Source: Candidatus Marinamargulisbacteria bacterium
GTDB taxonomy: Bacteria; Margulisbacteria; Marinamargulisbacteria; UBA817
Reading direction: 5' to 3'
DNA: 64,000 nt
Assembly: GCA_049889215.1 (NCBI GenBank)
Contig: JBMHDV010000027.1
Span: 29,594-93,593, forward strand
Part shown: in pieces, positions 10,799 through 57,340 of the stretch
Position numbering within the stretch: position 1 is the stretch's first letter
Layout of the letters: each line of letters begins with the position of its first letter
Notes under the pieces: generated by a model
The model's database searches: none
The model's input: only the letters and a program-made list of their open reading frames with translations
Told to the model about the DNA's origin: nothing
Position numbers and translations under genes: made by a program

Positions 10799-11254
10799 AT
10801 GTTACTTGAACGATTGAATGGTCAGCCTGAAAATGTAGAGTTTAGTATTCCTTGCATGTCCGATTATGTAGGTGTCGTTAGATTGGCAGTATCTGGTCTA
10901 GCAACTCGAATGAATTTTTCTATAGAAGAAATTGAAGATATTAAAATAGCTGTTTCCGAAGCTTGTACAAATTCAGTGCAATATGCATTTGATGACCCAT
11001 CTGAGCAACGTGTATTCATTACCTTTAATTTATTTAAAGATAAACTCGAAATTATTGTGAAAGATCATGGCAAAGGGTTTGAAGTTGAAACACTCGAAAG
11101 AACCCCTATTGAAGAACGTAAATTAGATGAGATTGATGAAAATGTCCCACGTCTTGGCCTGGGAATTACATTCATCAAAAGTTTAATGGATGAAACCAAC
11201 ATCACCTCACAAATTGGTGGTGGAACAACCATTCAAATGGCAAAACATATTTAA
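10799..11254 (+). CDS. Anti-sigma factor / Ser-protein kinase of the RsbW/SpoIIAB family (HATPase_c)
   Basis: N-box-like EACTNSVQYA, G1 box VKDHGKGF, G2 box GLGITFIKSLMDE, GGGTTI near C-terminus. Confidence 0.75.
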   Translation: MLLERLNGQPENVEFSIPCMSDYVGVVRLAVSGLATRMNFSIEEIEDIKIAVSEACTNSVQYAFDDPSEQRVFITFNLFKDKLEIIVKDHGKGFEVETLERTPIEERKLDEIDENVPRLGLGITFIKSLMDETNITSQIGGGTTIQMAKHI

Positions 11255-11260
11255 TAACCA

Positions 11261-11548
11261 TTGCTTAAGTTAATATTTATTTTTTTTATGTCCGTATCCT
11301 TCTACGTGTTTTACCAACGCAAATTATCACGCGTCTTGAAGCCGGGGTTTGTAACACCCATATCAGCAATTCTAACTCTAGTTTCATTAGCACCAATGGG
11401 ATTTATAGTTGGATTAATTAGCGTATACGCCATACCAAAACTATTAACAAAACAATCCAGTATGCATTCAATGATTTGCGCTAAATGTGGTACCCTATCC
11501 AAAAAGGGGGAATCCATATGCAGAAAGTGCAAAAACATGCTGTCCTAA
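11261..11548 (+). CDS. Small membrane protein with C-terminal zinc-ribbon (CxxC...CxxC)
   Basis: Two hydrophobic helices then CAKCG...CRKCKN; TTG start at 11261 or ATG ~11288; overlaps start of next gene by ~30 nt. Confidence 0.35.
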   Translation: MLKLIFIFFMSVSFYVFYQRKLSRVLKPGFVTPISAILTLVSLAPMGFIVGLISVYAIPKLLTKQSSMHSMICAKCGTLSKKGESICRKCKNMLS

Positions 11549-12780
11549 CAGACAATAATCAACCATTACCATATTCAGTTGAACAAATTAAATTGGTAAA
11601 ACAAAAATTAAACACAAAGCAAGAGACCGAAGTTCTTTATAATCAAACGCCAAAAAGTACGGCACCGTATTTACCAATATTCATTTTAACTTCAATAAAC
11701 CAACAATATTATGAGATAGAAATTAACCCATCAGAATCATACCGAATCACATGCAACCCATGGAAAGATGAAAACTTATTAAATCATCAGAAATTGATTA
11801 CGGTTTGTCCGACGCTTTTCATTTCATATTTAGCAAATCATCATCCAACAAATGCATGCATTGGGGCATTAAATATTCTGGCTACAATAATCGATCATTA
11901 TAATATTTCCGATCTTCATTTTATAAAATCAACCGTTATTTTTAAACAAAACCAACAAGAAAGATTCCGTTTAATTTTTGCTGAAACAGACATGAAGAAA
12001 CTGCGCTACTATTTAAAACTCCATGCTCATATGGATCCATCCAACACACAACAACCCCAAGATGGGTCCTTGTCGTTTAAATTTGAACATATTCAATTAG
12101 ATCTTAGAGTTGCCACTCTACCAACAAGAAATGAAGAAATGCTTTCTATCCGAGCTTTTAATCTGAAAAATAAAATAAAATCTTTAGCTGAATTAGGGTT
12201 TAACAGTAAAAAAGCCGCAGCAATTACACAAATGATTAAAAATAAAAACGGGTTAATCTTAATAACAGGCGCAACAGGTGCAGGAAAATCTACCACACTA
12301 TACGCACTATTAAAATTACTTAAAAAACGCCATGTTATTACAATTGAAGATCCCATTGAACAACCGCTCACAGATATTCATCAAACCAACATTAATAATA
12401 AAAAAGGTTATACATTGGATGTGGGTCTCAAAGCAATTTTACGACATAATCCGGATATCATAGCCATTGGTGAAATTCGTGATGCAAAAACTGCTGATAT
12501 TGTGTTGCAAGCAGCATATTCTGGGCACCTAGTGATCGCATCACTTCATACAAATTCAATAGAAGCAACATTGCTCAGATTACAAAGTTTAGGATGTTCA
12601 CCTTTTTTAATCAGTTATTGCTTACGAGGAATCATTGCACAAGACCTAATCAGTTCAGCAAACAATAACGTTAAACTGGTAAGCAGTATTCTATTATGTC
12701 AATCACCGTTTATAATAACTGACTTAAAAAAAGAATTAACGACTTTCATAAAACATAATACACTGCTTCATAATGATTGA
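11518..12780 (+). CDS. GspE/PilB/PilT-family secretion ATPase (ComGA-like), orphan
   Basis: Walker A GATGAGKST, Asp box VITIEDPIE, Walker B IIAIGEIRD, His box LVIASLHTNS; start set at ATG 11518 with AAGGGGG SD; N-terminal ~230 aa unassigned. Confidence 0.8.
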   Translation: MQKVQKHAVLTDNNQPLPYSVEQIKLVKQKLNTKQETEVLYNQTPKSTAPYLPIFILTSINQQYYEIEINPSESYRITCNPWKDENLLNHQKLITVCPTLFISYLANHHPTNACIGALNILATIIDHYNISDLHFIKSTVIFKQNQQERFRLIFAETDMKKLRYYLKLHAHMDPSNTQQPQDGSLSFKFEHIQLDLRVATLPTRNEEMLSIRAFNLKNKIKSLAELGFNSKKAAAITQMIKNKNGLILITGATGAGKSTTLYALLKLLKKRHVITIEDPIEQPLTDIHQTNINNKKGYTLDVGLKAILRHNPDIIAIGEIRDAKTADIVLQAAYSGHLVIASLHTNSIEATLLRLQSLGCSPFLISYCLRGIIAQDLISSANNNVKLVSSILLCQSPFIITDLKKELTTFIKHNTLLHND

Positions 12781-17016: not shown

Positions 17017-17535
17017 ATGGTATTTAATTTATTTAAATCATCAGAAAAAACTGACCAAGAACCGATCACGATATCAAGTGAAATGAAAGACGATGCAAAA
17101 GCATTTGTTGAAGGTATTTTAGAAAAAGCAAATTTTAATTCAATTGTTGCAATCAACAATGACACAGATGATGTCATTTACATTATGATTGATGATGAAT
17201 ATGAAACAGCTAGAATTATTGGAAAAGATGGCCAAACATTAACATCTATACAAGTTTTAACTCAATCGTATCTTACTAAAAAATATAGCCAATATGTTCC
17301 AATATTTGTTGACTGCAACGAATACTTTTCATACCGAATTGAAAAAGCACAAAATAAAGCAAAGGAACTTGAAGATAAATTATCAGATGAACGTCCATCC
17401 ATTGAGTTATTTCCGATGACCGCTTTAGAAAGACGCGCAATTCATACGCTGTATAAGGATGATACAAGAGTAAAAACTCATAGTGTTGGAGAAGGAGAAG
17501 ATCGTAGAATCATTCTTTCTCTAAAAGATGCATGA
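17017..17535 (+). CDS. khpB: RNA-binding protein Jag/KhpB (KH and R3H domains)
   Basis: ATG 17017 with SD; KH-like IIGKDGQTLTSIQ and R3H-like C-terminus; conserved position after yidC. Confidence 0.8.
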   Translation: MVFNLFKSSEKTDQEPITISSEMKDDAKAFVEGILEKANFNSIVAINNDTDDVIYIMIDDEYETARIIGKDGQTLTSIQVLTQSYLTKKYSQYVPIFVDCNEYFSYRIEKAQNKAKELEDKLSDERPSIELFPMTALERRAIHTLYKDDTRVKTHSVGEGEDRRIILSLKDA

Positions 17536-18869
17536 ATATCAGCGATACCATCGCAGCAATTGCAACACCCCTAGTTCCTTCAGCAATTGGAATTATTCGC
17601 ATTAGCGGCCCAAACGTATCTGATGTAATTCAACATTGCTTTGGAAAGAATATTAATGAGTTATCACCAAAGCAGATGAATCGTGGCATATTCATTGATA
17701 AAGATAAAGCAGAACTAGATGACTGTTGTTATGTTTATTATAAGAGCCCATCCTCTTATACAGGCGAAGATAGCTGCGAGATTTTTGCACATGGAAGCGT
17801 ATATATTTTAAAAACAATGTTATCGTCCATATGTCTTATTGAAAATTGCCGTATTGCTAAACACGGTGAATTCACTCAACGTGCATTTATAAATGGAAAA
17901 ATACCATTATCAAAAGCAGAATCCATTATTGATATTATTGAATCTAATTCACAGACAGCACACGATATAGCACTCAACCAGTACAAAGGTTACGTATATC
18001 AAACAATAACCCGTTGTCGTCAAAAACTCATGCAATGCTTAGAAAAAGTTGAAGCATCATTAGAGTTTCCTGACGAAGTCGGCAATATCAAAGATACAAC
18101 AGTGGCCAATGACGTTGAATCAATTAACAGCGAGTTAGTGCCAATCATTAAAGCCAGTGATTACGGATCAACATTAAAAAATGGGCTTAAGTTCGTCATT
18201 ATTGGAAAGCCAAATGCCGGAAAATCATCCCTACTTAATGCATTAGCTGGTGAAAATCGTAGCATTGTAACAAACACTCCAGGAACAACGCGAGACTACA
18301 TCGATGTATCAATTGAATATAATGGTGTATTAATACAAATTATCGACACTGCAGGATTACGAGATACCTCAAATAATATCGAACAACTCGGGATTGATAA
18401 AATTTCAGAACTTTCAGAAAGTACAGACGGCATTATACAACTCATGGACATTCAGGAAGATACAGCCCCGATTAAAACAACATTTGGACATAATAAACCA
18501 ATATTACAAGTTTTTAATAAAATAGACACACAACCAACGGGATTTAAACAAGAACCCGATTTTCATTATATTTCCTGCACAACAAAACAAGGAATAATGG
18601 AATTAAAAGAATCATTAATCACAACATTTATCTCACCAGAAGATTATAAGCCAACTCAAATGTTATGCAATATTCGCCAAATTACAGAACTTAATAAAGC
18701 AAAAAAATACATTGAGCAAACCCTGCAACGCCTAAACGAAAATGCAGAGTTGGATATTGTTGCAATCGATATCCATGATGCAATTAAATGTCTAGCAAAT
18801 ATCACAGGCGAAGATTATACTGAAGAACTTTTGGATGGTATCTTTGCTAATTTTTGTATCGGAAAATAA
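17532..18869 (+). CDS. mnmE: tRNA modification GTPase MnmE
   Basis: N-terminal DTIAAIATP, G-domain GKPNAGKSSLLNAL...DTAGLRDT, C-terminal CIGK. Confidence 0.95.
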   Translation: MNISDTIAAIATPLVPSAIGIIRISGPNVSDVIQHCFGKNINELSPKQMNRGIFIDKDKAELDDCCYVYYKSPSSYTGEDSCEIFAHGSVYILKTMLSSICLIENCRIAKHGEFTQRAFINGKIPLSKAESIIDIIESNSQTAHDIALNQYKGYVYQTITRCRQKLMQCLEKVEASLEFPDEVGNIKDTTVANDVESINSELVPIIKASDYGSTLKNGLKFVIIGKPNAGKSSLLNALAGENRSIVTNTPGTTRDYIDVSIEYNGVLIQIIDTAGLRDTSNNIEQLGIDKISELSESTDGIIQLMDIQEDTAPIKTTFGHNKPILQVFNKIDTQPTGFKQEPDFHYISCTTKQGIMELKESLITTFISPEDYKPTQMLCNIRQITELNKAKKYIEQTLQRLNENAELDIVAIDIHDAIKCLANITGEDYTEELLDGIFANFCIGK

Positions 18870-18871
18870 AA

Positions 18872-19612
18872 TTAAATTTGGGAAATATTATTTTTGTCAC
18901 TAGAAGATAAATGGCTCGACAAATCATCAACTTTTGATTCTAATCCAGCCATTAAGTTTTTGGTGCGAATTTGAGTATGATGAAACTTTTTTAAACGCTT
19001 TTGAAATTCATCAAAAACCAATTTATTACGTCGATTCAAATATTGAAATGTTAAAAATATGGCAACAACCTGAATAAAGATAAATAAAGAAAACTGCAAT
19101 AACATCACAAAAAATGAATTACTGGAAAAAATAGAAAGAAATCCAACCAGTGGAGATGATGTGCCCATCTCATCAACATACTCATTTGTATTAGCAACCA
19201 CATCATTTGATACCATCGCTTTTAATGCAGAGTATATATTCGAGCGCCATTGAGACGCCAACTGGTAAGCAGATAAATCAGACCCAATAACATCTGATGG
19301 TGTAACACGATACAATTCAACATTATCCACATAAGCGACATAATCAGCCTTGTTTCGACTCCGTCGAATACGAATATGATTTAATTTTGCAGACTGACGG
19401 CCCAAGTCATTTAATGTTTTAAAAATCTTCTCAGAGCGTTCAAATGATGACGAAAACACTTGTTTTGTACCTACGTCTTTAACACGTATTACAATTTGTC
19501 CATTGATTTTAATAACAGGTATTAACTGTTGGTTTTCAACAATGGTAGATAATTGATAATCATTTGCAAACAAATGAACAGATAAAAATAATATGGTTAA
19601 AATTAGCTTCAT
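18872..19612 (-). CDS. Bitopic membrane protein of unknown function (signal peptide, periplasmic domain, one TM, short cytoplasmic tail); candidate sigma-factor partner
   Basis: N-terminal hydrophobic leader MKLILTILFLSVHLFA, second hydrophobic segment FFVMLLQFSLFIFIQVVAIFL; 5 nt downstream of sigma gene. Confidence 0.5.
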   Translation of the reverse strand: MKLILTILFLSVHLFANDYQLSTIVENQQLIPVIKINGQIVIRVKDVGTKQVFSSSFERSEKIFKTLNDLGRQSAKLNHIRIRRSRNKADYVAYVDNVELYRVTPSDVIGSDLSAYQLASQWRSNIYSALKAMVSNDVVANTNEYVDEMGTSSPLVGFLSIFSSNSFFVMLLQFSLFIFIQVVAIFLTFQYLNRRNKLVFDEFQKRLKKFHHTQIRTKNLMAGLESKVDDLSSHLSSSDKNNISQI

Positions 19613-19617
19613 TTACG

Positions 19618-20349
19618 TTATTTATAGTTTAATTGTTTTAAGCGAGATCGTAAACGAAGAATTGCTTTTGTATGGATTTGAGATACTCGTGATTCACTCA
19701 CCTGTAAAATTAAGCCAATCTCACGTAAAGTAAGTTCCTCAAAATAATACAACACCAAGACCTTTTTTTCTTGCTCAGGTAATTCATGGACAACACGCTT
19801 AACCAGATCTTTTTGTTCTTTCTTCTCAAAAAACACTTCTGGTGTAATCATTTTTTGATCTTCAATTGTATCTGCAAAACTAGCTGTATTATTATCAGCA
19901 TATGTTGGCTCATCCAACGATATCAAAAAGGATCGTGATACCTCTGCCATCATTTTATGCAGCTTTTCTTTACTAATCCCCATTTCATCAGCGAGCTCAT
20001 CATCAGATGCAGCCCCACCTTCTTTTCGAATTTCAATCGCTTTTGTTGCTTGTTCTATTTGGCGCGCTTTTCGGCATAATGTTTGGCCACCTAATGTATA
20101 TCGTCGCAGCTCATCTAAAATTGCTCCTCGGATTCGGGGAACAGAATATGTTTTAAACTGAACACCTTTACTCACATCAAACTTCTTGGCTGCGTCAATA
20201 AGGCCCATACTACCAATAGCATGTAGATCATCCTTAGTAACCCCTGGTGGTAAATTCATTGTTAGTCGATTAACAACAAACTTAACCAAGTATAAGTGGC
20301 TTATTACGAGTTGTTTTTCATTCTTCAAGGATGACATGCTATCTGGCAA
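19618..20349 (-). CDS. fliA: RNA polymerase sigma factor, sigma-28 (FliA/SigD) family
   Basis: Region 2 SMGLIDAAKKFD..FKTYSVPRIRGAILDELRR and region 4.2 ELTLREIGLILQVSESRVSQIHTKAILRLR, close to FliA-type region 4. Confidence 0.85.
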   Translation of the reverse strand: MPDSMSSLKNEKQLVISHLYLVKFVVNRLTMNLPPGVTKDDLHAIGSMGLIDAAKKFDVSKGVQFKTYSVPRIRGAILDELRRYTLGGQTLCRKARQIEQATKAIEIRKEGGAASDDELADEMGISKEKLHKMMAEVSRSFLISLDEPTYADNNTASFADTIEDQKMITPEVFFEKKEQKDLVKRVVHELPEQEKKVLVLYYFEELTLREIGLILQVSESRVSQIHTKAILRLRSRLKQLNYK

Positions 20350-21244
20350 CTTGACCTCCTCGAAGCTTTGTTATGGTTAACAACAAAGGACTAGCAATAA
20401 ATAACGATGAATATGTACCTGTAATCAAACCAACAATAAGCACTGTTGAAAATACTTTCAATGACATTCCAGCGAAAAAGAAAATACTAAACACAACAAT
20501 ACCCGTTGAAATTGATGTATGTATTGATCTGGGCAACATCTCATTAACAGCTTGGTTTAAGACTTCTTTAGAAAACTCTTCCTGGTCATTCATGCGCATT
20601 TTCTCACGAACACGATCAAATATTACAATCGTATCATTAATCGAATACCCCAATACAGTTAATAATGCAGCAATATATGCCGTACTTAATTCAACTTTTA
20701 GCAAAGCTGTCATTGCAAGGATAATCAGTGCATCGTGCAGCAATGCGATGATTGATGAAATCCCAAATATAAATTCAAACCGCCACGAACAATACATTAG
20801 TATCGCAACTGCAACAGAAATTAATATAATAAAACTGGTCTTTCGTAATTGCTCACCAATCGATGGTCCAATTACATCAACTTCCAATACCTCGAATTCT
20901 CCAAATTCTTTTTTAATCGCATTAAATAGTTGATTTCGAACATTAACATCGACTTGTTGTGTCTTTAATAAAATGTCACCAACACCTGATGTTTGAATCG
21001 AAAGCTTTTTTAAGCCCAAGCTACTAAACATTTCTCTTAGACGCGTTTCATATTGTTGTGGTGCAGAATCAAAACGTAACGTCATTGTAGATCCACCTGT
21101 AAAATCAATCCCCATATTAAAAATATGATTAAACGCTCTAAAGTTTTGTATCATTGCAACAATACCGATGCCAATTACAACTGTAGAAATTAAATACCAT
21201 AACCGTCGTTTTTTTATAAATTCAATCATTTGTGATTCCTCCAA
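20339..21244 (-). CDS. secF: Protein translocase subunit SecF
   Basis: MGIDFTGGS motif, six-TM pattern, directly after secD with 23-nt overlap. Confidence 0.9.
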   Translation of the reverse strand: MEESQMIEFIKKRRLWYLISTVVIGIGIVAMIQNFRAFNHIFNMGIDFTGGSTMTLRFDSAPQQYETRLREMFSSLGLKKLSIQTSGVGDILLKTQQVDVNVRNQLFNAIKKEFGEFEVLEVDVIGPSIGEQLRKTSFIILISVAVAILMYCSWRFEFIFGISSIIALLHDALIILAMTALLKVELSTAYIAALLTVLGYSINDTIVIFDRVREKMRMNDQEEFSKEVLNQAVNEMLPRSIHTSISTGIVVFSIFFFAGMSLKVFSTVLIVGLITGTYSSLFIASPLLLTITKLRGGQVAR

Positions 21245-22553
21245 TTAATACCCGTTTTGGAAGATTCTTAAACCTTAAAATTAATTCAACTAAAACTTTG
21301 GTCACAAATAACGACGAAAACATACTAACCATAACACCAATACTCAACGTTAATGCAAAACCCTTAATCGAACCAGTTCCAAGCCAAAAAAGCACCATAG
21401 CAGCAAATAATGTCGTAACATTCGAATCCAAAATAGCAACAAATGCTTTAGAAAAACCTTCATTTACTGCAGAATAAACAGACTCACCTCGATCCATTTC
21501 TTCACGAATACGGGCAAATATAATAATGTTTGCATCAACAGCCATCCCTAAAGTTAAAATTAAACCTGCAATACCTGGCAATGTTAAGGTCGCATCCATC
21601 ATTTTAAGAATACCCATGGTTAAAATTCCATAATATGTTAAGGCTAATACGGCCATTGCACCAAAGGTACGAAAAAATACCATCATGTAAATAACCACGC
21701 CTATCAAAGCTATCATTCCAGCGCGCTTACCACTAGTGATTGAATCCATACCCAATGTCGGACCAATCAAACGATTTGACAAAATTTCTACAGGAACAGG
21801 CAACGATCCTGCACGAAGCTTAATCACTAAGTCTTTCACTTCTTGAGTAGTAAATGAACCTGAAATTACCGCACTACCACCAGCAATTGGTTCATTAACA
21901 TTTGGCGCCGAAATTAATGCACCATCCAATAAAATTGCTAAAGGGCGTCCAACATTATTCTTAGTGGCCTGAAAAAACAACTCTGTACCTTCTGAATCAA
22001 ACTTGATATTAACCATCGGCTGACCATAATTATCTGCACCAGCAAAAGCCTCTTTAAGGTTATTGCCTTGCAAAACCTTCTTTTTTAGTATTAACGGGCG
22101 CAAGATCATCTCACCATTTGCAAGACCTTGCTCCAAATACAAAATTTTTGCATTTTTACCTAATAATATATCTTTTTCTTCCTGGGACAATCGTTCAAGG
22201 TTCTGAGGTGCCCACTCTGCTTCATGAAAGGTCAACTGTGCAGTCTCACCAATCAATGACAATGCACGATCAATATCACTAATGCCAGGTAACTCGACAA
22301 TCACTTGAGTTAATCCTTTTCGCTGAATGACAGGTTCAGTTAACCCCAAGGCATTAATTCGTCCTCGAATAACATCAATAACCCCCAAGATGTCATCATT
22401 AGTTATCTCACGACCATCCACTTCTTTTGCCTCCAAAACAACAGATACGCCGCCCCTCAAATCAAGGCCTAAATTAAATGGCTTAGTGGTAAGCACCCAA
22501 ATAGATGCAGCCAAAATAATACTCGCTAAAAAAAATCGTTTAATTAGTGTCAT
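21222..22553 (-). CDS. secD: Protein translocase subunit SecD
   Basis: LGLDLRGGVSVVLEA...periplasmic domain then C-terminal TM bundle typical of SecD. Confidence 0.9.
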   Translation of the reverse strand: MTLIKRFFLASIILAASIWVLTTKPFNLGLDLRGGVSVVLEAKEVDGREITNDDILGVIDVIRGRINALGLTEPVIQRKGLTQVIVELPGISDIDRALSLIGETAQLTFHEAEWAPQNLERLSQEEKDILLGKNAKILYLEQGLANGEMILRPLILKKKVLQGNNLKEAFAGADNYGQPMVNIKFDSEGTELFFQATKNNVGRPLAILLDGALISAPNVNEPIAGGSAVISGSFTTQEVKDLVIKLRAGSLPVPVEILSNRLIGPTLGMDSITSGKRAGMIALIGVVIYMMVFFRTFGAMAVLALTYYGILTMGILKMMDATLTLPGIAGLILTLGMAVDANIIIFARIREEMDRGESVYSAVNEGFSKAFVAILDSNVTTLFAAMVLFWLGTGSIKGFALTLSIGVMVSMFSSLFVTKVLVELILRFKNLPKRVLIGGITND

Positions 22554-22614
22554 AATAATTTCCTAGAAATTTTCTATATTATAACTAATCTTTAAACAAA
22601 ATAACTAGAAATTA

Positions 22615-24099
22615 TCAGATTGATTTTAAATGAGGAAAGAATAATACGTCTCGAATGGATGCTGCGTTGGTTAGAAGCATAACAACACGATCAATACCAA
22701 TACCCAATCCACCTGTTGGTGGCATTCCATACGATAACGCCTCAATAAAATCATCATCCATTTGATGCGCCTCTTCAAATCCAGCTTCTCGTGCTTTCTG
22801 TTGCGCTTCCAGCCGTTCTTTTTGATCAATCGGATCATTTAACTCGGTAAACGCATTGGCAATTTCCATCTTATTGATAATTAATTCAAACCGCTCAACA
22901 TATGCTGGGTTATTACGGTTCTTTTTGGCCAATGGCGATGTTTCTAATGGATAGTCAACAATAAACGTTGGTTGGATTAGGTGATTTTCAACAAATGCAT
23001 CATACACTTCATTAATAAGTTCGCCTTTCGGTGCATCTGATCCAAATTCCAAACCTTTTGTTTTTAGAAGTGCCAACATGTCATTATTGGATGCTGTATC
23101 AATGTCCAATCCAGAATGCTCTAAAATTGCATCACGCATTGTCACGCGTTTAAACGGTAGACTAAAATCCAAAGATTGTCCTTGATACTCAATTGTTTCG
23201 GAACCATAAGTCGATACAACCAAGTGGTTCATTAACTGTTCTGTTAATGCCATCATGTCAGAATAATCAGCATACGCTTGATACAGTTCCAATAATGTAT
23301 ACTCTGGGTTGTGTTTAAATGATACCCCTTCATTTCGAAACACACGTCCGATTTCAAAAATCTTTTCAAAACCACCAACAATGAGCCGTTTTAAGTGGAG
23401 TTCTAGTGCAATACGTAAATACAAATTCTGCTTAAGTTCGTTATGGTGCGTCGTAAATGGTCGGGCCGATGCACCACCATAAATATGATGCAATACGGGT
23501 GTTTCAACCTCCATAAACGATTGATCCGCCAAAAAGTTACGAATATCATGAATCACACTGGAACGCTTTTTAAACACATCCATTACATCTGGATTAGCAA
23601 TTAAATCAACGTAACGACGTCTGTAACGCGCTTCCTTATCTTGCAATCCATGGTATTTTTCTGGCAACGGATGCAATGACTTAGTTAATAGTTCAAACGA
23701 ATCCACATTAATCGTAATTTCACCACGCCGCGTGCAAAACAACGACCCAGTTACACCAACAATGTCACCAACATCCAACATTTCAAATTGTGCAAACGAT
23801 GGTAAATCATTCACCGAAGCATACAGCTGAACACTACCCGATGCGTCAGACACATTAGCAAAAATGGCTTTACCATGACCACGTTTGGCCTTGATTCTTC
23901 CACATACTTGCACTGTATGATCAGATTTTTCTCCAGCACCCAATCCATCAACCAACGCCAAAGCATCGGCAATGTGATGGGATCGATCATACCCATAAGC
24001 AAATGGTTCGATATTTTGTTCACGATAGGTATCTAGCTTATTTAGCCGGACATCAAATTCAGATTCTGTGGTTTGTGTTGTTTCTTGACTCATACTCAA
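22615..24099 (-). CDS. lysS: Lysine--tRNA ligase (class II)
   Basis: N-terminal OB-fold region and class II motifs (FMEVETPVL, RVFRNEG, GGLGIGIDRVVMLL). Confidence 0.95.
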   Translation of the reverse strand: MSMSQETTQTTESEFDVRLNKLDTYREQNIEPFAYGYDRSHHIADALALVDGLGAGEKSDHTVQVCGRIKAKRGHGKAIFANVSDASGSVQLYASVNDLPSFAQFEMLDVGDIVGVTGSLFCTRRGEITINVDSFELLTKSLHPLPEKYHGLQDKEARYRRRYVDLIANPDVMDVFKKRSSVIHDIRNFLADQSFMEVETPVLHHIYGGASARPFTTHHNELKQNLYLRIALELHLKRLIVGGFEKIFEIGRVFRNEGVSFKHNPEYTLLELYQAYADYSDMMALTEQLMNHLVVSTYGSETIEYQGQSLDFSLPFKRVTMRDAILEHSGLDIDTASNNDMLALLKTKGLEFGSDAPKGELINEVYDAFVENHLIQPTFIVDYPLETSPLAKKNRNNPAYVERFELIINKMEIANAFTELNDPIDQKERLEAQQKAREAGFEEAHQMDDDFIEALSYGMPPTGGLGIGIDRVVMLLTNAASIRDVLFFPHLKSI

Positions 24100-24176
24100 A
24101 TGATACTCATTTTTAACCCGCCAAACAATAGGCAGCCGATTTTCATTGCAACCATAAATTATGCTAAGGTAGTGGT

Positions 24177-24473
24177 ATGGAATACATTATCGCGGTAGCT
24201 GCAGCTGCCATTTATTTATTTGTATCAGCAGGGTCACCTAATTCTAACCTGGAGAGCAACTATAAAGAGCTAACTGTAAACTCACGTTTTGGGCACAATG
24301 AAACCAAAGTCATAAACAATAAAAATTACACCTGGGTTGACCAAGCCAATGTGAAACTCGACGAGGCTGGTGTGATTCGCGATGACCGAGGACGGCCATA
24401 CAAGATAAATTCAGCTGGTTACATTGTCATTGACACTCAAAAAGTCAATCAAGAAAACGCCAGTTCAAGTTAA
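24177..24473 (+). CDS. Small hypothetical protein with N-terminal hydrophobic segment
   Basis: 98-aa ORF, ATG with AAGG upstream; no recognisable motif. Confidence 0.4.
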   Translation: MEYIIAVAAAAIYLFVSAGSPNSNLESNYKELTVNSRFGHNETKVINNKNYTWVDQANVKLDEAGVIRDDRGRPYKINSAGYIVIDTQKVNQENASSS

Positions 24474-24533
24474 GACGGCCAGGCATACGCCTGACTTACT
24501 TTAATAACTTAACGATGACAAATGATTTCAAAA

Positions 24534-25388
24534 TCAGTCGGATTTAACACCACAAAAACCAATACTAGTCTCGAGAGCTTTTAGCTTACTCAATTTCTTA
24601 TTATCGATATTGTAATGCTTTTGAATTTCTTTAAGTTTTCTATTGATTAAGTTTTTGATACGTAAAATCTTTTGATTTGATTCACCACAGTCAAGCTCTA
24701 CATCACCAGCTTTTGTTAATTCAGAAGTTTCTTGAACTCCTTCAAGTATTTCAAATATTTCACGTAAATCGCGAAGATAATCTGCTGTAATTTCTTTTTT
24801 AATTATTTCATTCTCTAATTTTTGAATTTGATCTTCAGATTTACTTTTTATAGCAGACTTAATTAGTGATACAATTTTTTTGATAATTTTTCCCTCATTA
24901 CAAGATCCATCAAGAACCAAGAGACCAACAGAAAACCATTGGGCAGCAGCCAAACCAACACCAGTTTGAGCTGTCTCTTTAACACGCGAAACTTTTGTAT
25001 CAACAACCTTAATATCATCTTGCTGTTGATGCAACTGATCATTAATCGCTTTTTTATTGGCTGCTTCAACATAATCATCAAGACGGCGACAAACGTCTTC
25101 TACTACTGTTGATTCCAATTCATTTGTGTATTTTACATGACTATCTTTAATTAATGCATCATCTTCTTTATATTGAAAGTTCCCTTCAATTATTTGAGTA
25201 CCATTACGTTCTGAGTAACCTGCCAAAACACTAAAAGGGGGATTAGCATACGTTTTAACATAGTTTTGATGGGATTGACCCAAACTTGCTTTCACAGCCT
25301 CATGGCAAGATGTTCCACGTAAATTTCGTTGTCCACTAGCTCCAGTGAATAATACTGCAGCAAATGCTAATGCCGATCGTAATCTCAT
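24534..25388 (-). CDS. Secreted hypothetical protein (signal peptide, coiled-coil-rich, 5 Cys)
   Basis: Start set at MRLRSALAFAAVLFTGASG preceded by GGAGG SD; listed ORF start 25403 is a TTG extension. Confidence 0.5.
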   Translation of the reverse strand: MRLRSALAFAAVLFTGASGQRNLRGTSCHEAVKASLGQSHQNYVKTYANPPFSVLAGYSERNGTQIIEGNFQYKEDDALIKDSHVKYTNELESTVVEDVCRRLDDYVEAANKKAINDQLHQQQDDIKVVDTKVSRVKETAQTGVGLAAAQWFSVGLLVLDGSCNEGKIIKKIVSLIKSAIKSKSEDQIQKLENEIIKKEITADYLRDLREIFEILEGVQETSELTKAGDVELDCGESNQKILRIKNLINRKLKEIQKHYNIDNKKLSKLKALETSIGFCGVKSD

Positions 25389-25500
25389 AAATTTTTCCTC
25401 CAAAATTTTACTTATACATAAGCTATCGTAAAAAAATATAAAATAGTTTCGTTTTTAATAAAAAAAACCAATTAATTGTTTCATATTTTTTACATTATGG

Positions 25501-25548
25501 GAATCCTAAATGAGCACCGCATGCGAAAAGTAACAATGATATCTCATC
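25501..25548. repeat. 48-bp direct repeat, copy 1
   Basis: gaatcctaaatgagcaccgcatgcgaaaagtaacaatgatatctcatc; matches copy 2 at 46/48. Confidence 0.8.
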
Positions 25549-25621
25549 TATCATACATGTTCACCAGCCCTTTTTTGGAGAGAGATCGCGGCACTTTTCA
25601 AAATAGGAGCGCAGTTTAGGT

Positions 25622-25669
25622 GAATCCTAAATGAGCACCGCAGGTGAAAAGTAACAATGATATCTCATC
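25622..25669. repeat. 48-bp direct repeat, copy 2 (ends 10 nt from tRNA-Leu 3' end)
   Basis: gaatcctaaatgagcaccgcaggtgaaaagtaacaatgatatctcatc; 73-bp spacer between copies. Confidence 0.8.
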
Positions 25670-25679
25670 AAAAATGGGT

Positions 25680-25763
25680 TGGTGCGCGTGGAGGGACTTG
25701 AACCCCCACGTCAAAGACACTAGATCCTAAGTCTAGCGCGTCTACCAATTTCGCCACACGCGC
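25680..25763 (-). tRNA. tRNA-Leu (anticodon UAG), type II with long variable arm
   Basis: Reverse complement folds as cloverleaf: 7-bp acceptor stem GCGCGTG/CACGCGC, anticodon loop CTTAGGA, T-loop TTCAAGT, encoded 3' CCA. Confidence 0.85.
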
Positions 25764-42209: not shown

Positions 42210-42470
42210 ATGTCAGACATTGGCCCTATCTCTGCCGATCTCCCATCTCTTGCAGAAGAGGTAATAAATTCACCTGACACAATTTCGACAACTTGTCGCG
42301 CATGTGTTGAGTCATCATCATCGGTTGATGAACTTAGCGATAAACTAAAGATACTTGAAGAAAGCATAGGAAACAGCTCGCCAGCAACAATTCAAATGAT
42401 CAATGAAATCAAAACAATGATTGAATCAGATACGAGTTTATCAGAAATCCAATCCAAACTGTCCAGTTAA
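42210..42470 (+). CDS. Small Ser-rich hypothetical protein
   Basis: 86-aa ORF immediately following previous ORF. Confidence 0.3.
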   Translation: MSDIGPISADLPSLAEEVINSPDTISTTCRACVESSSSVDELSDKLKILEESIGNSSPATIQMINEIKTMIESDTSLSEIQSKLSS

Positions 42471-44122
42471 AATGTTTGAGACACATTGAAGTGAACCATA
42501 AGCTCATCATTTCCAAAACCAAAATCCAATCGTAAAGGTATCACAGACTCTAACAATCGAACACCAAATCCGTACCCTCGATACAATTGATCAAACAATT
42601 GATTGAATTCATCATTTATAAATCCACCATCTAAAAATAAAACTCCAGCAATATTTTGTGATAATCGTTGCCTTAATTCAAAATTAAAAGATAAACGATA
42701 GTTTCCAAGAAAAGAAAACTCATTGTATCCTCTCAGTGAATTTGCGCCACCTAACGAAAACCGCTCAGTTTCAAATGTTGATTCTTGGCCTAATTTTTTA
42801 TATCTACCCCCAAAAAGTTGAACTGCAAATGTCGATTGATTAAGCGTATAAAAGTAAGCATTTGTTAGACGAAACCGATGAAATGAAATCCCACCTAAAT
42901 CAATAAGTCCCAAGTTGCCTCCAATATCATAATTCAATGCAATTCGATGCCCAAATGTGGGATATTGAAAATGATCAACTTTGTTTTGATCCAATAAAAA
43001 AGAGATGGATCGTGTGGTATAGCCAGAAAAGTCACCGTCATCTTGCGGAACTACAGTCTCATTGCGTAAGGTGGTGGCAATTGCCAAATATTGACGCTTA
43101 ATTTGATGCATGAACGACACTGCACCACCTGAACGAATAGTTTTATAAATAGTTAAATCCTCTTGATAAACTTCAGAAAGAAATCTTTTGTAAAAACTAA
43201 TGTCAAATGAAACTGGAAAAGAATTAAATAACCAAGGTTGATTATATCGAAATTTATACGCTCGAGTCTCTACATTGTTTAAATAACCCAACTGGAATTG
43301 CAACTCTATAAAATCTGTGTAAATAAACCGGTTGTACCACTTAAGCTTAGAAAATAGAGCCACACCTTTATCATCTTCCAATTCCTCTAAACCAATATCC
43401 AACATATTTTGCTTTCGCTCCCTTATCTGATACGCTAATCGAACATTATCCGATGAAACCATCTCAATGGTTGGTCCGTTGACACTACTAAAGTTTGACA
43501 ATTGCGATAATGATTCAAGATCAATATCTAAAATTCGCCGATTGAGCTGATCACCGTTTGATAACAAAAGTTCACGATAAATAACCCAAGACGGGGTTGT
43601 ATCCAATCCCATAACGACAATCTCACTGATTGTAGGTGACTCAATCATAATCGTCATTGTTCCAGCATCAGAAACCGAAATTGATTTAACGGATGCGGTA
43701 ATATATCCCCAATCAACCAATTGTTTATTAATTGCAGCAACATCATCTTTTAAATATTTAAAGTTTAAATAGTCACCAGATGTATGAGCCATCACCATCG
43801 TCAGTTGACGCATTGGAATTGGAGAACCAACAACATGAATTTTTGTTATCACCGGGTTATACTGAATATTAACAACTAACCGACTACCTCGCTTCTTCTT
43901 ATCAAATTGAAATGTTATGGATTGATATACACCATTCTGTCGAATTTGATTTAAAAAAGCTTCAACTTGCTGCTCAGATGAAATCACCCCATTAAACCGA
44001 GAATTTATCTTTGAAATCAAAAACTGATCATCTGTCCCAGTCACAGCAACCGACTGAATAAAGGCCGAATGAGCAGCAGTAGAAAAATAAATAAATAAAA
44101 AGATATTAAAAAGAATACGCAT
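42467..44122 (-). CDS. Omp85-family outer membrane protein (BamA/TamA-like)
   Basis: Signal peptide, POTRA-like N-terminal region, C-terminal beta-barrel ending in aromatic residue (NVSQTF). Confidence 0.75.
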   Translation of the reverse strand: MRILFNIFLFIYFSTAAHSAFIQSVAVTGTDDQFLISKINSRFNGVISSEQQVEAFLNQIRQNGVYQSITFQFDKKKRGSRLVVNIQYNPVITKIHVVGSPIPMRQLTMVMAHTSGDYLNFKYLKDDVAAINKQLVDWGYITASVKSISVSDAGTMTIMIESPTISEIVVMGLDTTPSWVIYRELLLSNGDQLNRRILDIDLESLSQLSNFSSVNGPTIEMVSSDNVRLAYQIRERKQNMLDIGLEELEDDKGVALFSKLKWYNRFIYTDFIELQFQLGYLNNVETRAYKFRYNQPWLFNSFPVSFDISFYKRFLSEVYQEDLTIYKTIRSGGAVSFMHQIKRQYLAIATTLRNETVVPQDDGDFSGYTTRSISFLLDQNKVDHFQYPTFGHRIALNYDIGGNLGLIDLGGISFHRFRLTNAYFYTLNQSTFAVQLFGGRYKKLGQESTFETERFSLGGANSLRGYNEFSFLGNYRLSFNFELRQRLSQNIAGVLFLDGGFINDEFNQLFDQLYRGYGFGVRLLESVIPLRLDFGFGNDELMVHFNVSQTF

Positions 44123-51595: not shown

Positions 51596-52083
51596 GGCAA
51601 AATTGGCAGTCGATTAACGGAGTTTTCAGCTTCCATTAAAACACCATTTTCTTTATAAGATTTGAAAATAAAATGGGTGGTGGTTGATTTAACATTTTCT
51701 ATTGTTGCTAACTTATCAAAAACAAAATGTGCGATATCTTTATGGTCTTTACCTTCAACAACAACCAAGAAATCATATTTACCTGAAACAAGAAAATGTG
51801 ATTTCACATTTGGAAAACAATAAACCTTTTTAGCAATTGAGTCATATCCAGTATCTTTTTCTGGCCGGATACTTAATTCAACCAATGCCTTAATTGAAGA
51901 TGTTTGAATTAAATTTTCGTTAATGACAGTTGTAAACTGACAAATAATTCCAGCAGACTTCATCTCATCAATATGCTTAATCACATCATCAACATTTAAA
52001 TTAACCATACTGGCTAATTCGTCATTTGTATATCGAGAGTTTTGCAATAATAGATCCAAAATCATTCTTTTATTTTTATCCAT
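51592..52083 (-). CDS. Lrp/AsnC-family transcriptional regulator
   Basis: N-terminal HTH (LDLLLQNSRYTNDELASMVNLNVDDV) and C-terminal RAM domain. Confidence 0.85.
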   Translation of the reverse strand: MDKNKRMILDLLLQNSRYTNDELASMVNLNVDDVIKHIDEMKSAGIICQFTTVINENLIQTSSIKALVELSIRPEKDTGYDSIAKKVYCFPNVKSHFLVSGKYDFLVVVEGKDHKDIAHFVFDKLATIENVKSTTTHFIFKSYKENGVLMEAENSVNRLPILP

Positions 52084-52163
52084 ACATAAAAAGTATAATT
52101 TTATAGCAAATAAGTAAATAAAATTAAGCGCTGAGACGTATGAATTAATAGTAAAGTTTTAAT

Positions 52164-52514: not shown

Positions 52515-52537
52515 ACTAATCCTTTTAGAAGAGGTTT

Positions 52538-52565
52538 AGTTCTAGTATAACAAAGAATTAGAACT
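52538..52565. promoter_or_regulatory. Inverted repeat in divergent promoter region between REC and XRE genes (candidate operator)
   Basis: agttcta ... tagaact, 7-bp arms with 14-bp spacer. Confidence 0.25.
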
Positions 52566-52616
52566 CATTCAATTCTACTTATTTACAATCACGATAATTT
52601 TTTTTATAATTTTAAT

Positions 52617-53267: not shown

Positions 53268-53276
53268 CCACGTTAA

Positions 53277-56765: not shown

Positions 56766-56810
56766 TAATTCAGTATTGAAAAGCAAGACTAAAGTGAATA
56801 TTATATAATA

Positions 56811-57329: not shown

Positions 57330-57340
57330 GATTAAGTCTT

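What the first reader, a model, noticed from the sequence alone, without database searches (positions are those of the whole stretch)
18872..22553. Sigma-28-type sigma factor embedded in the secD-secF operon, followed by a bitopic membrane protein
secD, secF, the FliA-like sigma gene and a 246-aa membrane protein are co-oriented with overlaps or 5-nt gaps (23-nt and 11-nt overlaps, then 5-nt gap), suggesting one transcript. No flagellar genes are in the window. The downstream protein has a signal peptide, a periplasmic domain, one TM helix and a short cytoplasmic tail, a topology compatible with a membrane-bound regulator of the sigma factor, but it has no FlgM or known anti-sigma motif.
Basis: inference. 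Interest (0 to 1): 0.45.

Follow-up and report, generated by a model that had tools for sequence, protein, structure and literature searches.

The report
Flagellar sigma-28 and partner behind secDF
In uncultured marine Marinamargulisbacteria the flagellar sigma factor FliA and a conserved single-pass membrane protein sit directly behind the secD-secF protein-export genes, and the membrane protein looks like a shortened relative of the poorly understood SwrB-like flagellar proteins rather than a recognisable anti-sigma factor.

Summary
On the minus strand, secD, secF, a FliA/WhiG sigma-28 gene and a 246-aa membrane-protein gene ("X") overlap or nearly abut. No terminator or conserved internal promoter was found, and no flagellar gene lies in the 64 kb window.

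The window comes from a Candidatus Marinamargulisbacteria MAG. The run lysS-secD-secF-fliA-X recurs in every pelagic relative examined, down to 51% sigma identity. The sigma is the ortholog of the fliA found in the flagellar superoperon of other Margulisbacteria. Published gene tables show that Marinamargulisbacteria carry flagellar genes elsewhere, so this is a relocated flagellar sigma, not one from a flagellum-less lineage.

X has a signal peptide, a 115-aa periplasmic domain with no solved-structure relative, one TM helix and a ~55-aa cytoplasmic helix. A profile search of 1.84 billion proteins found 45 relatives. The distant ones add a C-terminal DUF6115 HTH-like module, lie next to fliA, fliO or motAB, and match the "TM+HTH" flagellar protein. 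B. subtilis SwrB matches DUF6115 just below threshold. X lacks that module and shows no FlgM or anti-sigma signature.

Best reading: a sigma-28-coupled, SwrB-like flagellar membrane factor. A direct anti-sigma role remains possible but is unsupported.

The parts
22615..24099 (-). lysS (class II lysyl-tRNA synthetase), first gene of the conserved run
   Evidence: Pfam tRNA-synt_2 at 311 bits plus an OB fold. It lies upstream of secD in all pelagic relatives, with gaps ranging from an overlap to 61 nt.
22554..22614 (-). 61-nt AT-rich lysS-secD spacer, the only real intergenic space in the run
   Evidence: Read directly. It contains TTATAAT, but no site passed the consensus promoter scan. In L007 and L009 this spacer is 2 nt or an overlap.
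21222..22553 (-). secD
   Evidence: TIGR01129 at 420 bits; Pfam SecD_1st, SecDF_P1_head and SecD_SecF_C.
20339..21229 (-). secF (likely ATG start at 21229; the longest ORF starts at TTG 21244)
   Evidence: TIGR00966 at 268 bits. GGAGGA precedes the ATG, and the ATGATTGA overlap with the secD stop recurs in L001, L014 and L015.
20355..20360 (-). Shine-Dalgarno AGGAGG for the sigma gene, inside the 3' end of secF
   Evidence: It lies 5 nt upstream of TTG 20349. A GGAG followed by a TTG start recurs in L004, L014 and L015.
19618..20349 (-). fliA: FliA/WhiG-type sigma-28, 243 aa, TTG start
   Evidence: TIGR02479 at 227 bits against a 189.6 cut-off; Pfam regions 2, 3 and 4. It is 100% identical to an NCBI Marinamargulisbacteria MAG protein. 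It is 53% identical to the flagellar-cluster fliA of L011 and 60% identical to that of L019. Across relatives it is as conserved as lysS.
18872..19612 (-). X: 246-aa type-I membrane protein translationally coupled to fliA (5-nt gap, no Shine-Dalgarno)
   Evidence: 39 homologs at 41-80% identity, all from Marinamargulisbacteria-type MAGs or metagenomes. 45 relatives among 1.84 billion representatives. Junctions are given.
19562..19612 (-). X residues 1-17: Sec signal peptide
   Evidence: K2, a hydrophobic core, and a small residue before N/D. The pattern is conserved in the alignment, and AlphaFold models it as a helix at residues 2-14.
19208..19561 (-). X residues 18-135: periplasmic beta3-alpha/beta3-alpha domain, the best conserved part of X
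19154..19207 (-). X residues 136-153: variable, disordered linker
   Evidence: pLDDT is below 50 for residues 135-163, and the sequence is not conserved.
19043..19153 (-). X residues 154-190: conserved juxtamembrane segment (SPLxGFLSIFS) and the single TM helix, with invariant F177 and Q181
   Evidence: Alignment A1. The helix spanning residues 166-237 runs through the membrane in the model. The Q in the TM helix is kept in most of the distant long forms.
18875..19042 (-). X residues 191-246: cytoplasmic tail. It comprises NRRNK, an amphipathic helix carrying the RLKKF(H/Q) motif, a variable spacer and a terminal N-[IV]-S-N-[IL] peptide
   Evidence: Positive-inside residues follow the TM helix, and the helix has pLDDT near 80. 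It occupies the position of the first helix of the long forms. Tail-only profile comparison is not significant (P 0.02-0.04).
17532..18869 (+). mnmE, convergent; its stop lies 2 nt from the stop of X and marks the end of the run
   Evidence: ORF. The same convergent mnmE..rpmH block is seen in L006, L007, L009, L014 and L015.

Best explanation
This is a lineage-specific operon-like run, lysS-secD-secF-fliA-X, in pelagic Marinamargulisbacteria.

fliA is the ordinary flagellar sigma-28. Other Margulisbacteria keep it in the flagellar superoperon (flhF-flhG-small TM protein-fliA-fapA...). Here it has moved behind secDF, together with its membrane partner X.

X is exported by Sec and anchored by one TM helix. 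It exposes a conserved 115-aa domain to the periplasm and a ~55-aa helix to the cytoplasm. It is a shortened relative of the flagellar 'TM+HTH' (DUF6115, SwrB-like) proteins that travel with fliA in other bacteria.

Shown:
- gene identities and tight junctions;
- conservation of the arrangement;
- homology of X to the long forms over the periplasmic domain and TM helix;
- genomic association of those long forms with fliA, fliO and motAB.

Inferred:
- The genes are co-transcribed.
- X is translated by ribosomes finishing fliA, because it has no Shine-Dalgarno of its own.
- By analogy with B. subtilis SwrB, X acts at the membrane on the flagellar basal body or export gate. Sigma-28-dependent late genes would then fire only when the envelope-spanning structure is ready. 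On this view the periplasmic domain anchors or senses an envelope component such as peptidoglycan.
For: **Identity of the sigma**
- Scores above the FliA/WhiG family threshold.
- Closest relatives outside the clade are the flagellar-cluster fliA genes of L019 (flhF-flhG-99aa-sigma-FapA; 60% by BLASTP, 57% over the trimmed alignment) and of L011 (53%).
- L011 fell inside the secDF-linked clade in 2 of 100 bootstraps, and L020 in 0 of 100.

**Flagella in the lineage**
- Supplementary Data 2 of PMC6349859 scores FlhA, FlhB, FliF, FliN, FlgC, FlgF, FlgH, FlgI, FlgE and FlgA as 'reliable' in at least one of the Marinamargulisbacteria genomes AA1A, AG2A and AG3B, mostly in AA1A (FlgG is reliable in AG2A only). 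[quoted passage not shown]
- The Marinamargulisbacterium R. eludens transcribes flagellar genes. It has a single 'sigma factor for flagellar operon', two genes after FlgC and followed by a hypothetical protein.

**Conservation**
- The run lysS-secD-secF-sigma-X is present in L001, L002, L006, L007, L008, L009, L014 and L015; short contigs L003-L005 show the secF-sigma-X or sigma-X part.
- Junctions are ATGA overlaps or 2-9-nt gaps, with one 37-nt gap.

**X family**
- Profile hits P0172, P0179, P0187, P0191, P0193 and P0196 have E-values from 8e-30 to 8e-5 against 1.84 billion proteins.
- They are collinear with X through the TM helix and first cytoplasmic helix.
- They carry DUF6115 at the C-terminus.

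**Contexts of the long forms**
- L013 and L017: directly after a FliA sigma; in L017, FliO lies directly before the sigma.
- L011: flhB-flhA-flhF-flhG-91aa-sigma-FapA-104aa-P0196...motA-motB.
- L010: the long form is followed by motA.
- PMC11607428 describes exactly this sub-module: sigma-28, FapA, YjfB and a 'TM + HTH' protein.

**Link to SwrB**
- SwrB's best Pfam hit is DUF6115 (E 7.9e-6, 26.7 bits against a cut-off of 27), covering profile positions 12-131.
- The long-form tails align with the SwrB C-terminus in hhalign (probability 80%, P 1.4e-5).
- SwrB is single-pass with a cytoplasmic C-terminus, is encoded after sigD, and is needed for sigma-D-dependent expression.
Against: - X itself has no DUF6115 hit even at E up to 10. 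It lacks the HTH-like C-terminus, which is the best conserved part of that family and is required in SwrB (the L155P mutant).
- The tail of X is not significantly similar to the long-form tails or to SwrB when compared on its own (P 0.02-0.1). The link to SwrB is therefore transitive, and the function may have diverged.
- SwrB has no periplasmic domain.
- The function of the 'TM+HTH' proteins outside Bacillus is unknown.
- No sigma-28 consensus promoter was found in the window or in 17 loci, so the regulon is not shown.
- I did not see a flagellar locus from a genome proven to carry the secDF-linked sigma. A second fliA paralog in those genomes is therefore not excluded.
- L019 falls inside the secDF-linked clade in 38 of 100 bootstraps.
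Its length of 167 aa and residues H13, L48, F51, L53 and L155 agree with the paper.
Confidence: 0.5

Rival explanations
1. X is a membrane-anchored anti-sigma-28 factor. Its cytoplasmic helix would sequester FliA at the membrane until a periplasmic signal, or proteolysis, releases it. In this lineage it would replace or supplement FlgM.
For: - sigma and X are translationally coupled and adjacent in three unrelated genomic contexts: secDF, fliO and the flagellar superoperon.
- A sigma apparently co-expressed with housekeeping genes needs post-translational control (inference).
- FlgM was scored 'reliable' in 5 Riflemargulisbacteria but absent in 3 Marinamargulisbacteria.
- The conserved 45-aa amphipathic tail and the terminal N-[IV]-S-N-[IL] peptide look like a docking element.
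Against: - No FlgM, ASD, zf-HC2 or RskA signal, even at E up to 10.
- The topology is the reverse of known membrane anti-sigma factors.
- The periplasmic domain, not the tail, is the most conserved part.
- The only characterised relative of the wider family, SwrB, acts positively and indirectly on sigma-D.
- The FlgM HMM also misses the flagellated Saganbacteria and Melainabacteria in the same table, so its absence is weak evidence.
Confidence: 0.2
2. X is an envelope or peptidoglycan-associated protein with no regulatory link to the sigma. The adjacency would be inherited gene order from the flagellar superoperon (for example a stator- or basal-body-associated scaffold) and nothing more.
For: - The periplasmic domain also occurs in three tandem copies, or fused to SPOR+Sel1, DPBB (RlpA-like) or BON domains, in proteins without any sigma link.
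- Long forms lie next to motAB in L010 and L011.
- The periplasmic domain is the most conserved part of X.
Against: - When the sigma left the flagellar cluster, X (and no other neighbour) moved with it and stayed coupled across lineages whose X proteins are only about 30% identical.
- L017 keeps only fliO-fliA-X together.
- A structural flagellar role is compatible with the best explanation and is not really distinct from it.
Confidence: 0.15
3. The sigma is a repurposed FliA/WhiG paralog with a non-flagellar regulon, as in Chlamydia sigma-28 or Streptomyces WhiG (from my own knowledge). It would perhaps control envelope or secretion genes, which would explain its place in the secDF operon. 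X would be its dedicated sensor.
For: - There is no flagellar gene within 64 kb.
- The sigma is as conserved as lysS.
- Flagellar mini-clusters with their own sigma (flhA-flhF-flhG-small ORF-sigma) exist in low-GC marine contigs of unknown affiliation (L020 and the P0210 contigs).
Against: - The L020 sigma is only 42% identical and never groups with the secDF-linked clade (0 of 100 bootstraps).
- R. eludens has a single FliA-type sigma, and it sits by FlgC.
- The secDF-linked sigmas are closest to the flagellar-cluster fliA of L019 and L011.
- Relatives of X are flagellum-linked.
Confidence: 0.1
4. X is an accessory subunit of the SecDF translocon (YajC-like or chaperone-like), and the sigma gene is merely inserted between them.
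For: Co-orientation and coupling with secDF across the pelagic clade.
Against: Homologs of X follow the sigma, not secDF, in L011, L013 and L017. In R. eludens, secF is followed by UvrD. There is no YajC or other Sec-related family hit.
Confidence: 0.03

Closest known systems
SwrB of Bacillus subtilis (gene immediately after sigD at the end of the fla/che operon)
   Same: A single-pass membrane protein with a cytoplasmic C-terminal part, encoded directly downstream of the sigma-28-type sigma gene. It is tied to sigma-28-dependent expression. The long-form relatives of X share SwrB's C-terminal HTH-like motif and its DUF6115 match.
   Different: SwrB has no periplasmic domain, only a few residues outside the membrane. 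X lacks the DUF6115/HTH-like C-terminus and shows no direct sequence similarity to SwrB. X has a cleavable signal peptide and a 115-aa periplasmic domain.
Flagellar-associated 'TM + HTH' protein of the sigma-28/FapA/YjfB sub-module (PMC11607428); Pfam DUF6115 (PF19610)
   Same: X is homologous to the Margulisbacteria-type members (P0172, P0179, P0187, P0191, P0193, P0196) over the periplasmic domain and TM helix, and is collinear through the first cytoplasmic helix. It shares their linkage to fliA.
   Different: X ends about 55 residues after the membrane, so it has no coiled-coil extension and no HTH-like end. X lies in a secDF operon rather than a flagellar locus. The family itself has no established function outside Bacillus.
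FlgM, the secreted anti-sigma-28 factor
   Same: A candidate post-translational partner of sigma-28. It was not detected in Marinamargulisbacteria by a KEGG HMM.
   Different: FlgM is a small soluble protein exported through the flagellum (my own knowledge). X is membrane-anchored and Sec-dependent, and it has no FlgM domain.
Membrane-anchored anti-sigma factors of ECF sigmas (RseA/RsiW type)
   Same: A bitopic protein encoded directly after, and translationally coupled to, its sigma gene.
   Different: Those factors have an N-terminal cytoplasmic anti-sigma domain and a C-terminal extracytoplasmic domain, and they partner group-4 sigmas (my own knowledge). X has the opposite orientation, no ASD or zf-HC2 match, and a group-3 partner.
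Flk of Salmonella
   Same: A single-pass membrane protein with a cytoplasmic bulk that influences the flagellar type III export checkpoint. The SwrB authors name it as functionally reminiscent of SwrB.
   Different: No sequence relationship was tested or expected. Flk is C-terminally anchored (my own knowledge) and lacks a periplasmic domain.

Membership tests
FliA/WhiG sigma-28 (TIGR02479) | Scores above the curated family threshold and has regions 2, 3 and 4 without region 1.1 | tested here: met
   227.1 bits against a 189.6 cut-off. Pfam Sigma70_r2, r3 and r4 are present in a 243-aa protein.
FliA/WhiG sigma-28 (TIGR02479) | Orthology to the fliA of flagellar gene clusters in related organisms | tested here: met
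   53% identity to the L011 fliA (flhF-flhG-...-fliA-fapA) and 60% (BLASTP) to that of L019. These are the nearest outgroups in a neighbour-joining tree. L011 falls inside the clade in 2 of 100 bootstraps and L019 in 38 of 100.
FliA/WhiG sigma-28 (TIGR02479) | The organism has a flagellum for the sigma to regulate | tested here: met
   Not in the window. Published tables list basal-body, rod, ring and hook genes in Marinamargulisbacteria AA1A, AG2A and AG3B and in R. eludens. This was not verified for this particular MAG.
FliA/WhiG sigma-28 (TIGR02479) | Drives TAAA-N15-GCCGATAA-type promoters of late flagellar genes | tested here: inconclusive
   No match beyond chance in the window (0 and 2 matches against 0.6 and 2.1 expected) and none in 17 loci. 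No late flagellar gene of this lineage was available to inspect.
DUF6115 / SwrB-like 'TM+HTH' flagellar proteins | Match to PF19610, including the C-terminal HTH-like motif (IYxLxxxGxSxxEIAxxLxxGxGEVxLxLxL) | tested here: not met
   No DUF6115 hit for X or for 7 other short forms at E up to 10. The alignment shows that X ends before the motif.
DUF6115 / SwrB-like 'TM+HTH' flagellar proteins | Significant homology to bona fide members over some other part of the protein | tested here: met
   A profile built from short forms hits six DUF6115-positive proteins at E 8e-30 to 8e-5 in a search of 1.84 billion proteins. For P0172, P0179 and P0191 the alignments run through the TM helix and first helix. 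The tail on its own is not significant.
DUF6115 / SwrB-like 'TM+HTH' flagellar proteins | Single-pass protein with N-terminus out and C-terminus in, encoded next to or near the sigma-28 gene | tested here: met
   A signal peptide plus one TM helix followed by NRRNK. X lies 5 nt after fliA, and the junction is conserved. SwrB topology is described.
DUF6115 / SwrB-like 'TM+HTH' flagellar proteins | Promotes flagellar type III export and hook completion | not testable with these tools
   Needs genetics. Known only for B. subtilis SwrB.
FlgM anti-sigma-28 | FlgM domain (PF04316) in a small soluble protein | tested here: not met
   No hit at E up to 10. X is 246 aa and membrane-anchored.
Membrane anti-sigma factors (ASD / zf-HC2 / RskA type) | N-terminal cytoplasmic anti-sigma domain, then a TM helix, then an extracytoplasmic C-terminal domain | tested here: not met
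   No such Pfam or NCBIfam hit, and the domain order is reversed.
Membrane anti-sigma factors (ASD / zf-HC2 / RskA type) | Direct binding to the cognate sigma | not testable with these tools
Needs AlphaFold-Multimer or two-hybrid.

The most novel reading that the evidence does not exclude
The sigma-28 gene and the X/'TM+HTH' gene form a portable two-gene regulatory module in which the membrane protein directly controls sigma-28. It would tether or release the sigma through its juxtamembrane helix and C-terminal peptide, in response to what its periplasmic domain senses. In pelagic Marinamargulisbacteria this module would have replaced FlgM and been wired to the constitutive lysS-secDF operon. 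That would reveal the long-sought molecular role of SwrB-class proteins as direct sigma-28 regulators.
Probability: 0.15. Interest if true: 0.65.

Novelty: new variant of a known kind. Interest (0 to 1): 0.4.

Why it matters
SwrB and the widespread 'TM+HTH' proteins encoded beside fliA have no known mechanism. This lineage supplies a natural minimal version: periplasmic domain, TM helix and one helix, with no HTH. That version has stayed glued to fliA even after both genes left the flagellar locus.

This argues that the partnership with sigma-28, rather than flagellar gene order, is what selection maintains. It also shows which part of the protein is dispensable.

Two further points are smaller. 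The work defines a small periplasmic domain family with no solved relative. It also shows that a late flagellar sigma can be expressed from a housekeeping Sec operon, which implies post-translational control.

For anyone outside flagellar regulation or candidate-phylum genomics, this is a modest, lineage-restricted curiosity.

Tried and rejected
1. **'Relic sigma in a flagellum-less lineage'.** I favoured this midway and then rejected it after reading the gene tables of PMC6349859 and the R. eludens expression table.
2. **Sigma-28 promoter searches.** TAAA-N14-16-CCGATA and a looser form, run on the window and on all loci, found nothing above chance.
4. **FlhA homolog search to find Marinamargulisbacteria flagellar loci.** The top hits are 52-60% identical, come from many phyla and are mostly unnamed. 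A cluster look-up gave no taxonomy. The FlhA contexts from the P0210 contigs and L020 are of unknown affiliation.
5. **GTDB genome scan.** With the family alignment it returned only 4 loci.
6. **Tail-only profile comparisons.** Short tail against long-form tail, and short tail against SwrB, were both not significant.
7. **Conserved internal promoter in the 3' end of secF.** None was found. The window's TTGAAA-17-TATTGT site at 20461 is not conserved.
8. **RsbW-like protein at 10799-11254 as the real anti-sigma of FliA.** Made less likely because R. eludens also encodes a SigB-type sigma with RsbV and RsbU.
9. **Rfam scan of 15-26 kb.** Only a tRNA was found.
10. **YjfB identity of the 104-aa ORF in L011.** Could not be confirmed.

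Full report
**1. Observation**

The minus strand between 18872 and 22553 carries four co-oriented ORFs:
- secD, 21222-22553.
- secF, 20339-21244 as the longest ORF.
- A 243-aa sigma factor, 19618-20349, with a TTG start.
- A 246-aa ORF, here called X, at 18872-19612.

SecD and SecF are unambiguous (TIGR01129 at 420 bits, TIGR00966 at 268 bits). The sigma scores 227 bits on TIGR02479 FliA_WhiG, above the 189.6 cut-off, and has Pfam regions 2, 3 and 4. X matches no Pfam or NCBIfam model, even at E up to 10.

The stated 23-nt overlap, 11-nt overlap and 5-nt gap are correct for the longest ORFs. Reading the sequence refines two points. secF most likely starts at ATG 21229, after GGAGGA, which gives an 8-nt ATGATTGA overlap. 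The sigma's TTG is preceded by AGGAGG at a 5-nt spacing. X has no Shine-Dalgarno of its own.

lysS (22615-24099) lies 61 nt upstream on the same strand. mnmE converges on X, with 2 nt between the two stop codons.

No terminator-like site lies on the minus strand inside the run. Promoter-like sites are not enriched (21 found against 24.2 +/- 4.6 expected).

Pfam scans of every ORF of at least 120 aa found no flagellar gene in the 64 kb.

**2. Source and conservation**

The sigma is 100% identical to an NCBI protein from a Candidatus Marinamargulisbacteria MAG. All 39 word-search homologs of X (41-80% identity) come from Marinamargulisbacteria or Margulisiibacteriota MAGs and marine metagenomes.

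In every pelagic relative whose context I could read, the order is lysS-secD-secF-sigma-X. These are L001, L002, L006, L007, L008, L009, L014 and L015; the short contigs L003, L004 and L005 show the secF-sigma-X or sigma-X part. The block usually converges on mnmE...rpmH, while genes further out differ.

The junctions stay tight:
- secD/secF: an ATGATTGA- or ATGATTAA-type overlap.
- secF/sigma: 8- or 11-nt overlaps, or gaps of 3-22 nt. A GGAG followed by a TTG start recurs in four genomes.
- sigma/X: ATGA overlaps in L001, L009 and L015; gaps of 2-9 nt in four others; 37 nt in L007.

An alignment of the 160 nt upstream of the sigma start in eight genomes shows no conserved sigma-70-type promoter.

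Across these genomes the sigma is as conserved as lysS (for example 76% against 74% in L001). X is the fastest-evolving gene of the run, at 49% in L001 and about 30% in the most distant genomes.

**3. What the sigma is**

Outside the secDF-linked clade, the nearest sigmas sit in flagellar clusters:
- L019: flhF-flhG-99aa-sigma-FapA. Identity to the window sigma is 60% by BLASTP and 57% over the trimmed alignment.
- L011: a Candidatus Margulisiibacteriota MAG with flhB-flhA-flhF-flhG-91aa-sigma-FapA-104aa-P0196...motA-motB. Identity is 53%.

In a neighbour-joining tree these two are the immediate outgroups. L011 falls inside the secDF-linked clade in 2 of 100 bootstraps. L019 falls inside in 38 of 100, so its exact position is unresolved.

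I first suspected a relic sigma in a flagellum-less lineage. The literature refutes that:
- Supplementary Data 2 of PMC6349859 scores FlhA, FlhB, FliF, FliN, FlgC, FlgF, FlgH, FlgI, FlgE and FlgA as 'reliable' in at least one of the Marinamargulisbacteria genomes AA1A, AG2A and AG3B, mostly in AA1A. FlgG is reliable in AG2A only.
- The placozoan symbiont R. eludens, a Marinamargulisbacterium, transcribes flagellar genes. By RAST annotation it has RpoD, RpoN, one SigB-type sigma and one 'sigma factor for flagellar operon' (peg.520). That gene lies two genes after FlgC and is followed by a hypothetical protein. Its secD and secF (pegs 793 and 794) are followed by UvrD.

The sigma is therefore most simply the flagellar FliA. 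In the pelagic clade it has been moved behind secDF.

In the same table FlgM is 'reliable' in five Riflemargulisbacteria and absent in the three Marinamargulisbacteria. It is also absent in the flagellated Saganbacteria and Melainabacteria, so the HMM is insensitive.

**4. Anatomy of X**

The alignment of 22 homologs and the AlphaFold models give a consistent layout:
- Residues 1-17: signal peptide.
- Residues 18-135: a beta-beta-beta-alpha/beta-beta-beta-alpha-alpha domain. The domain-only model has pLDDT 88 and pTM 0.83.
- Residues 136-153: a variable, disordered linker.
- Residues 154-190: a conserved juxtamembrane segment and one TM helix, with invariant F177 and Q181.
- After the TM helix: NRRNK, then a helix running to about residue 237.

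The periplasmic domain holds 29 of the 37 invariant columns. The short forms end in a conserved N-[IV]-S-N-[IL] peptide after a variable spacer.

**5. Relatives of X**

A profile of the family, searched against 1.84 billion representatives, found only 45 proteins. Most are short forms of 232-271 aa with the same layout and an R-L-D-K-L-Q-like motif after the TM helix.

Six more distant hits are longer, at 311-396 aa: P0172, P0179, P0187, P0191, P0193 and P0196, with E-values from 8e-30 to 8e-5. They are collinear with X through the TM helix and first cytoplasmic helix. They then add a coiled-coil stretch and a C-terminal Pfam DUF6115 match that ends in an HTH-like motif.

Their genomic contexts are informative:
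- P0172 lies directly after a FliA-type sigma in L013 and L017. In L017, FliO (PF04347, 33.7 bits) lies directly before the sigma, and no secDF is nearby.
- P0196 lies in the L011 flagellar superoperon.
- P0193 is followed by motA.

Its length of 167 aa and residues H13, L48, F51, L53 and L155 agree with the SwrB paper. Its best Pfam hit is DUF6115, at E 7.9e-6 and 26.7 bits against a cut-off of 27, covering nearly the whole profile. The long-form tails align with the SwrB C-terminus in hhalign (probability 80%, P 1.4e-5).

SwrB is a single-pass protein with a cytoplasmic C-terminus, encoded after sigD. It is needed for hook completion and sigma-D-dependent expression.

The periplasmic domain also occurs on its own in other architectures: three tandem copies (P0195), with SPOR and Sel1 (P0199), with an RlpA-like DPBB (P0194), and marginally with BON (P0197). 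This hints at an envelope or peptidoglycan association.

**6. Limits of the family assignment**

X itself gives no DUF6115 hit and lacks the HTH-like end. Its tail compared alone with the long-form tails or with SwrB is not significant (P 0.02-0.1). X is thus a homolog of the N-terminal two-thirds of the Margulisbacteria-type 'TM+HTH' proteins. It is not a DUF6115 member, and its link to SwrB is transitive.

It has no FlgM or anti-sigma domain, and its orientation is the reverse of classical membrane anti-sigma factors.

**7. Mechanism**

Shown:
- X and fliA are kept adjacent and coupled in three unrelated surroundings: secDF, fliO and the flagellar superoperon.
- X has no ribosome-binding site of its own in most genomes.

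Inferred:
- The genes are co-transcribed from lysS or secD onward. A late flagellar sigma would then be made along with housekeeping genes, which calls for post-translational control.
- X is translated by ribosomes that terminate on fliA.

I consider it most likely (0.5) that X is a SwrB-like flagellar membrane factor. On this view it acts on the basal body or export gate, coupling envelope-level assembly to sigma-28-dependent expression, and its periplasmic domain provides anchoring or sensing.

The rivals are:
- Direct membrane anti-sigma-28 (0.2). It is attractive because of the coupling and the undetected FlgM, but it has no positive evidence.
- A purely structural envelope role (0.15).
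- A repurposed non-flagellar sigma paralog (0.1).
- A SecDF accessory subunit (0.03).

Sigma-28 consensus promoters were not found in the window or in 17 loci, so the regulon is not shown.

**8. Caveats**

- I could not inspect a flagellar locus from a genome proven to carry the secDF-linked sigma.
- Low-GC marine contigs of unknown affiliation carry flhA-flhF-flhG-small ORF-sigma (L020 and the P0210 contigs). Their sigma is only 42% identical and never joins the clade. A second fliA in these genomes is still not formally excluded.
- The tree is neighbour-joining only.
- Flagellar gene presence rests on published tables for other members of the class, not on this MAG.

**9. Verdict**

The anti-sigma mechanism and the implied non-flagellar role are not supported.

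X is a new, shortened variant of a known but mechanistically obscure flagellar protein family, and it carries a periplasmic domain with no solved relative. Interest is moderate. The locus offers a natural dissection of SwrB-class proteins and an example of fliA wired into a housekeeping operon, but it is lineage-restricted and does not overturn current understanding.

Noticed in passing
window 10799-12780 (+): A 151-aa RsbW/SpoIIAB-type anti-sigma kinase (HATPase_c_2, 86.6 bits) has no STAS partner next to it. It is followed by a 95-aa membrane/zinc-ribbon-like ORF and a PilB-like T2SSE ATPase. R. eludens lists RsbV, RsbU and a SigB-type sigma, so this kinase probably serves a SigB-like sigma rather than FliA.
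   Followed up: partly
window 18875-18895 (-), C-terminus of X; alignment: Short forms of X end in a conserved peptide, N-[IV]-S-N-[IL], after a variable spacer. It looks like a short docking or degradation motif. Its partner is unknown.
   Followed up: partly
L017 8665-10933: A detached mini-cluster fliO - fliA - long-form TM+HTH sits among housekeeping genes (aroA, ispF, parAB) in a Saanich Inlet MAG. FliO scores 33.7 bits on PF04347. The SwrB authors speculated about FliO as a SwrB target.
   Followed up: partly
P0194, P0195, P0197, P0199 (proteins): The periplasmic domain of X is an autonomous module. It occurs in three tandem copies, or fused to SPOR+Sel1, RlpA-like DPBB or (marginally) BON domains. 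This suggests a peptidoglycan or envelope association.
   Followed up: partly
window 18869-18872: The mnmE and X stop codons are 2 nt apart on opposite strands, and no terminator-like site was found. Convergent transcripts must therefore overlap.
   Followed up: no
window 52000-64000: GC content drops to 27-31%, against 33-45% elsewhere. The stretch holds an HTH_3 protein, a 1162-aa AAA_16/STAND-like ATPase and a 1550-aa protein with a faint DUF2460 match. It may be an acquired or defence island.
   Followed up: no
window 42467-48809 (-): An Omp85/POTRA protein (551 aa) lies next to a 1567-aa ORF with no Pfam hit. The pairing is reminiscent of TamA/TamB.
   Followed up: no
L011 9200-9676 (-): Between the long-form TM+HTH gene and motA lies a 158-aa ORF on the opposite strand. 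It has faint double-zinc-ribbon and sigma70_r4/HTH hits and is unexplained.
   Followed up: no
window 24100-25763: Upstream of lysS lie a 289-aa ORF (24534-25403, minus strand) and a 98-aa ORF (24177-24473, plus strand), neither with a family match. A tRNA gene sits at 25683-25763 (minus strand). No riboswitch or T-box lies before lysS.
   Followed up: partly
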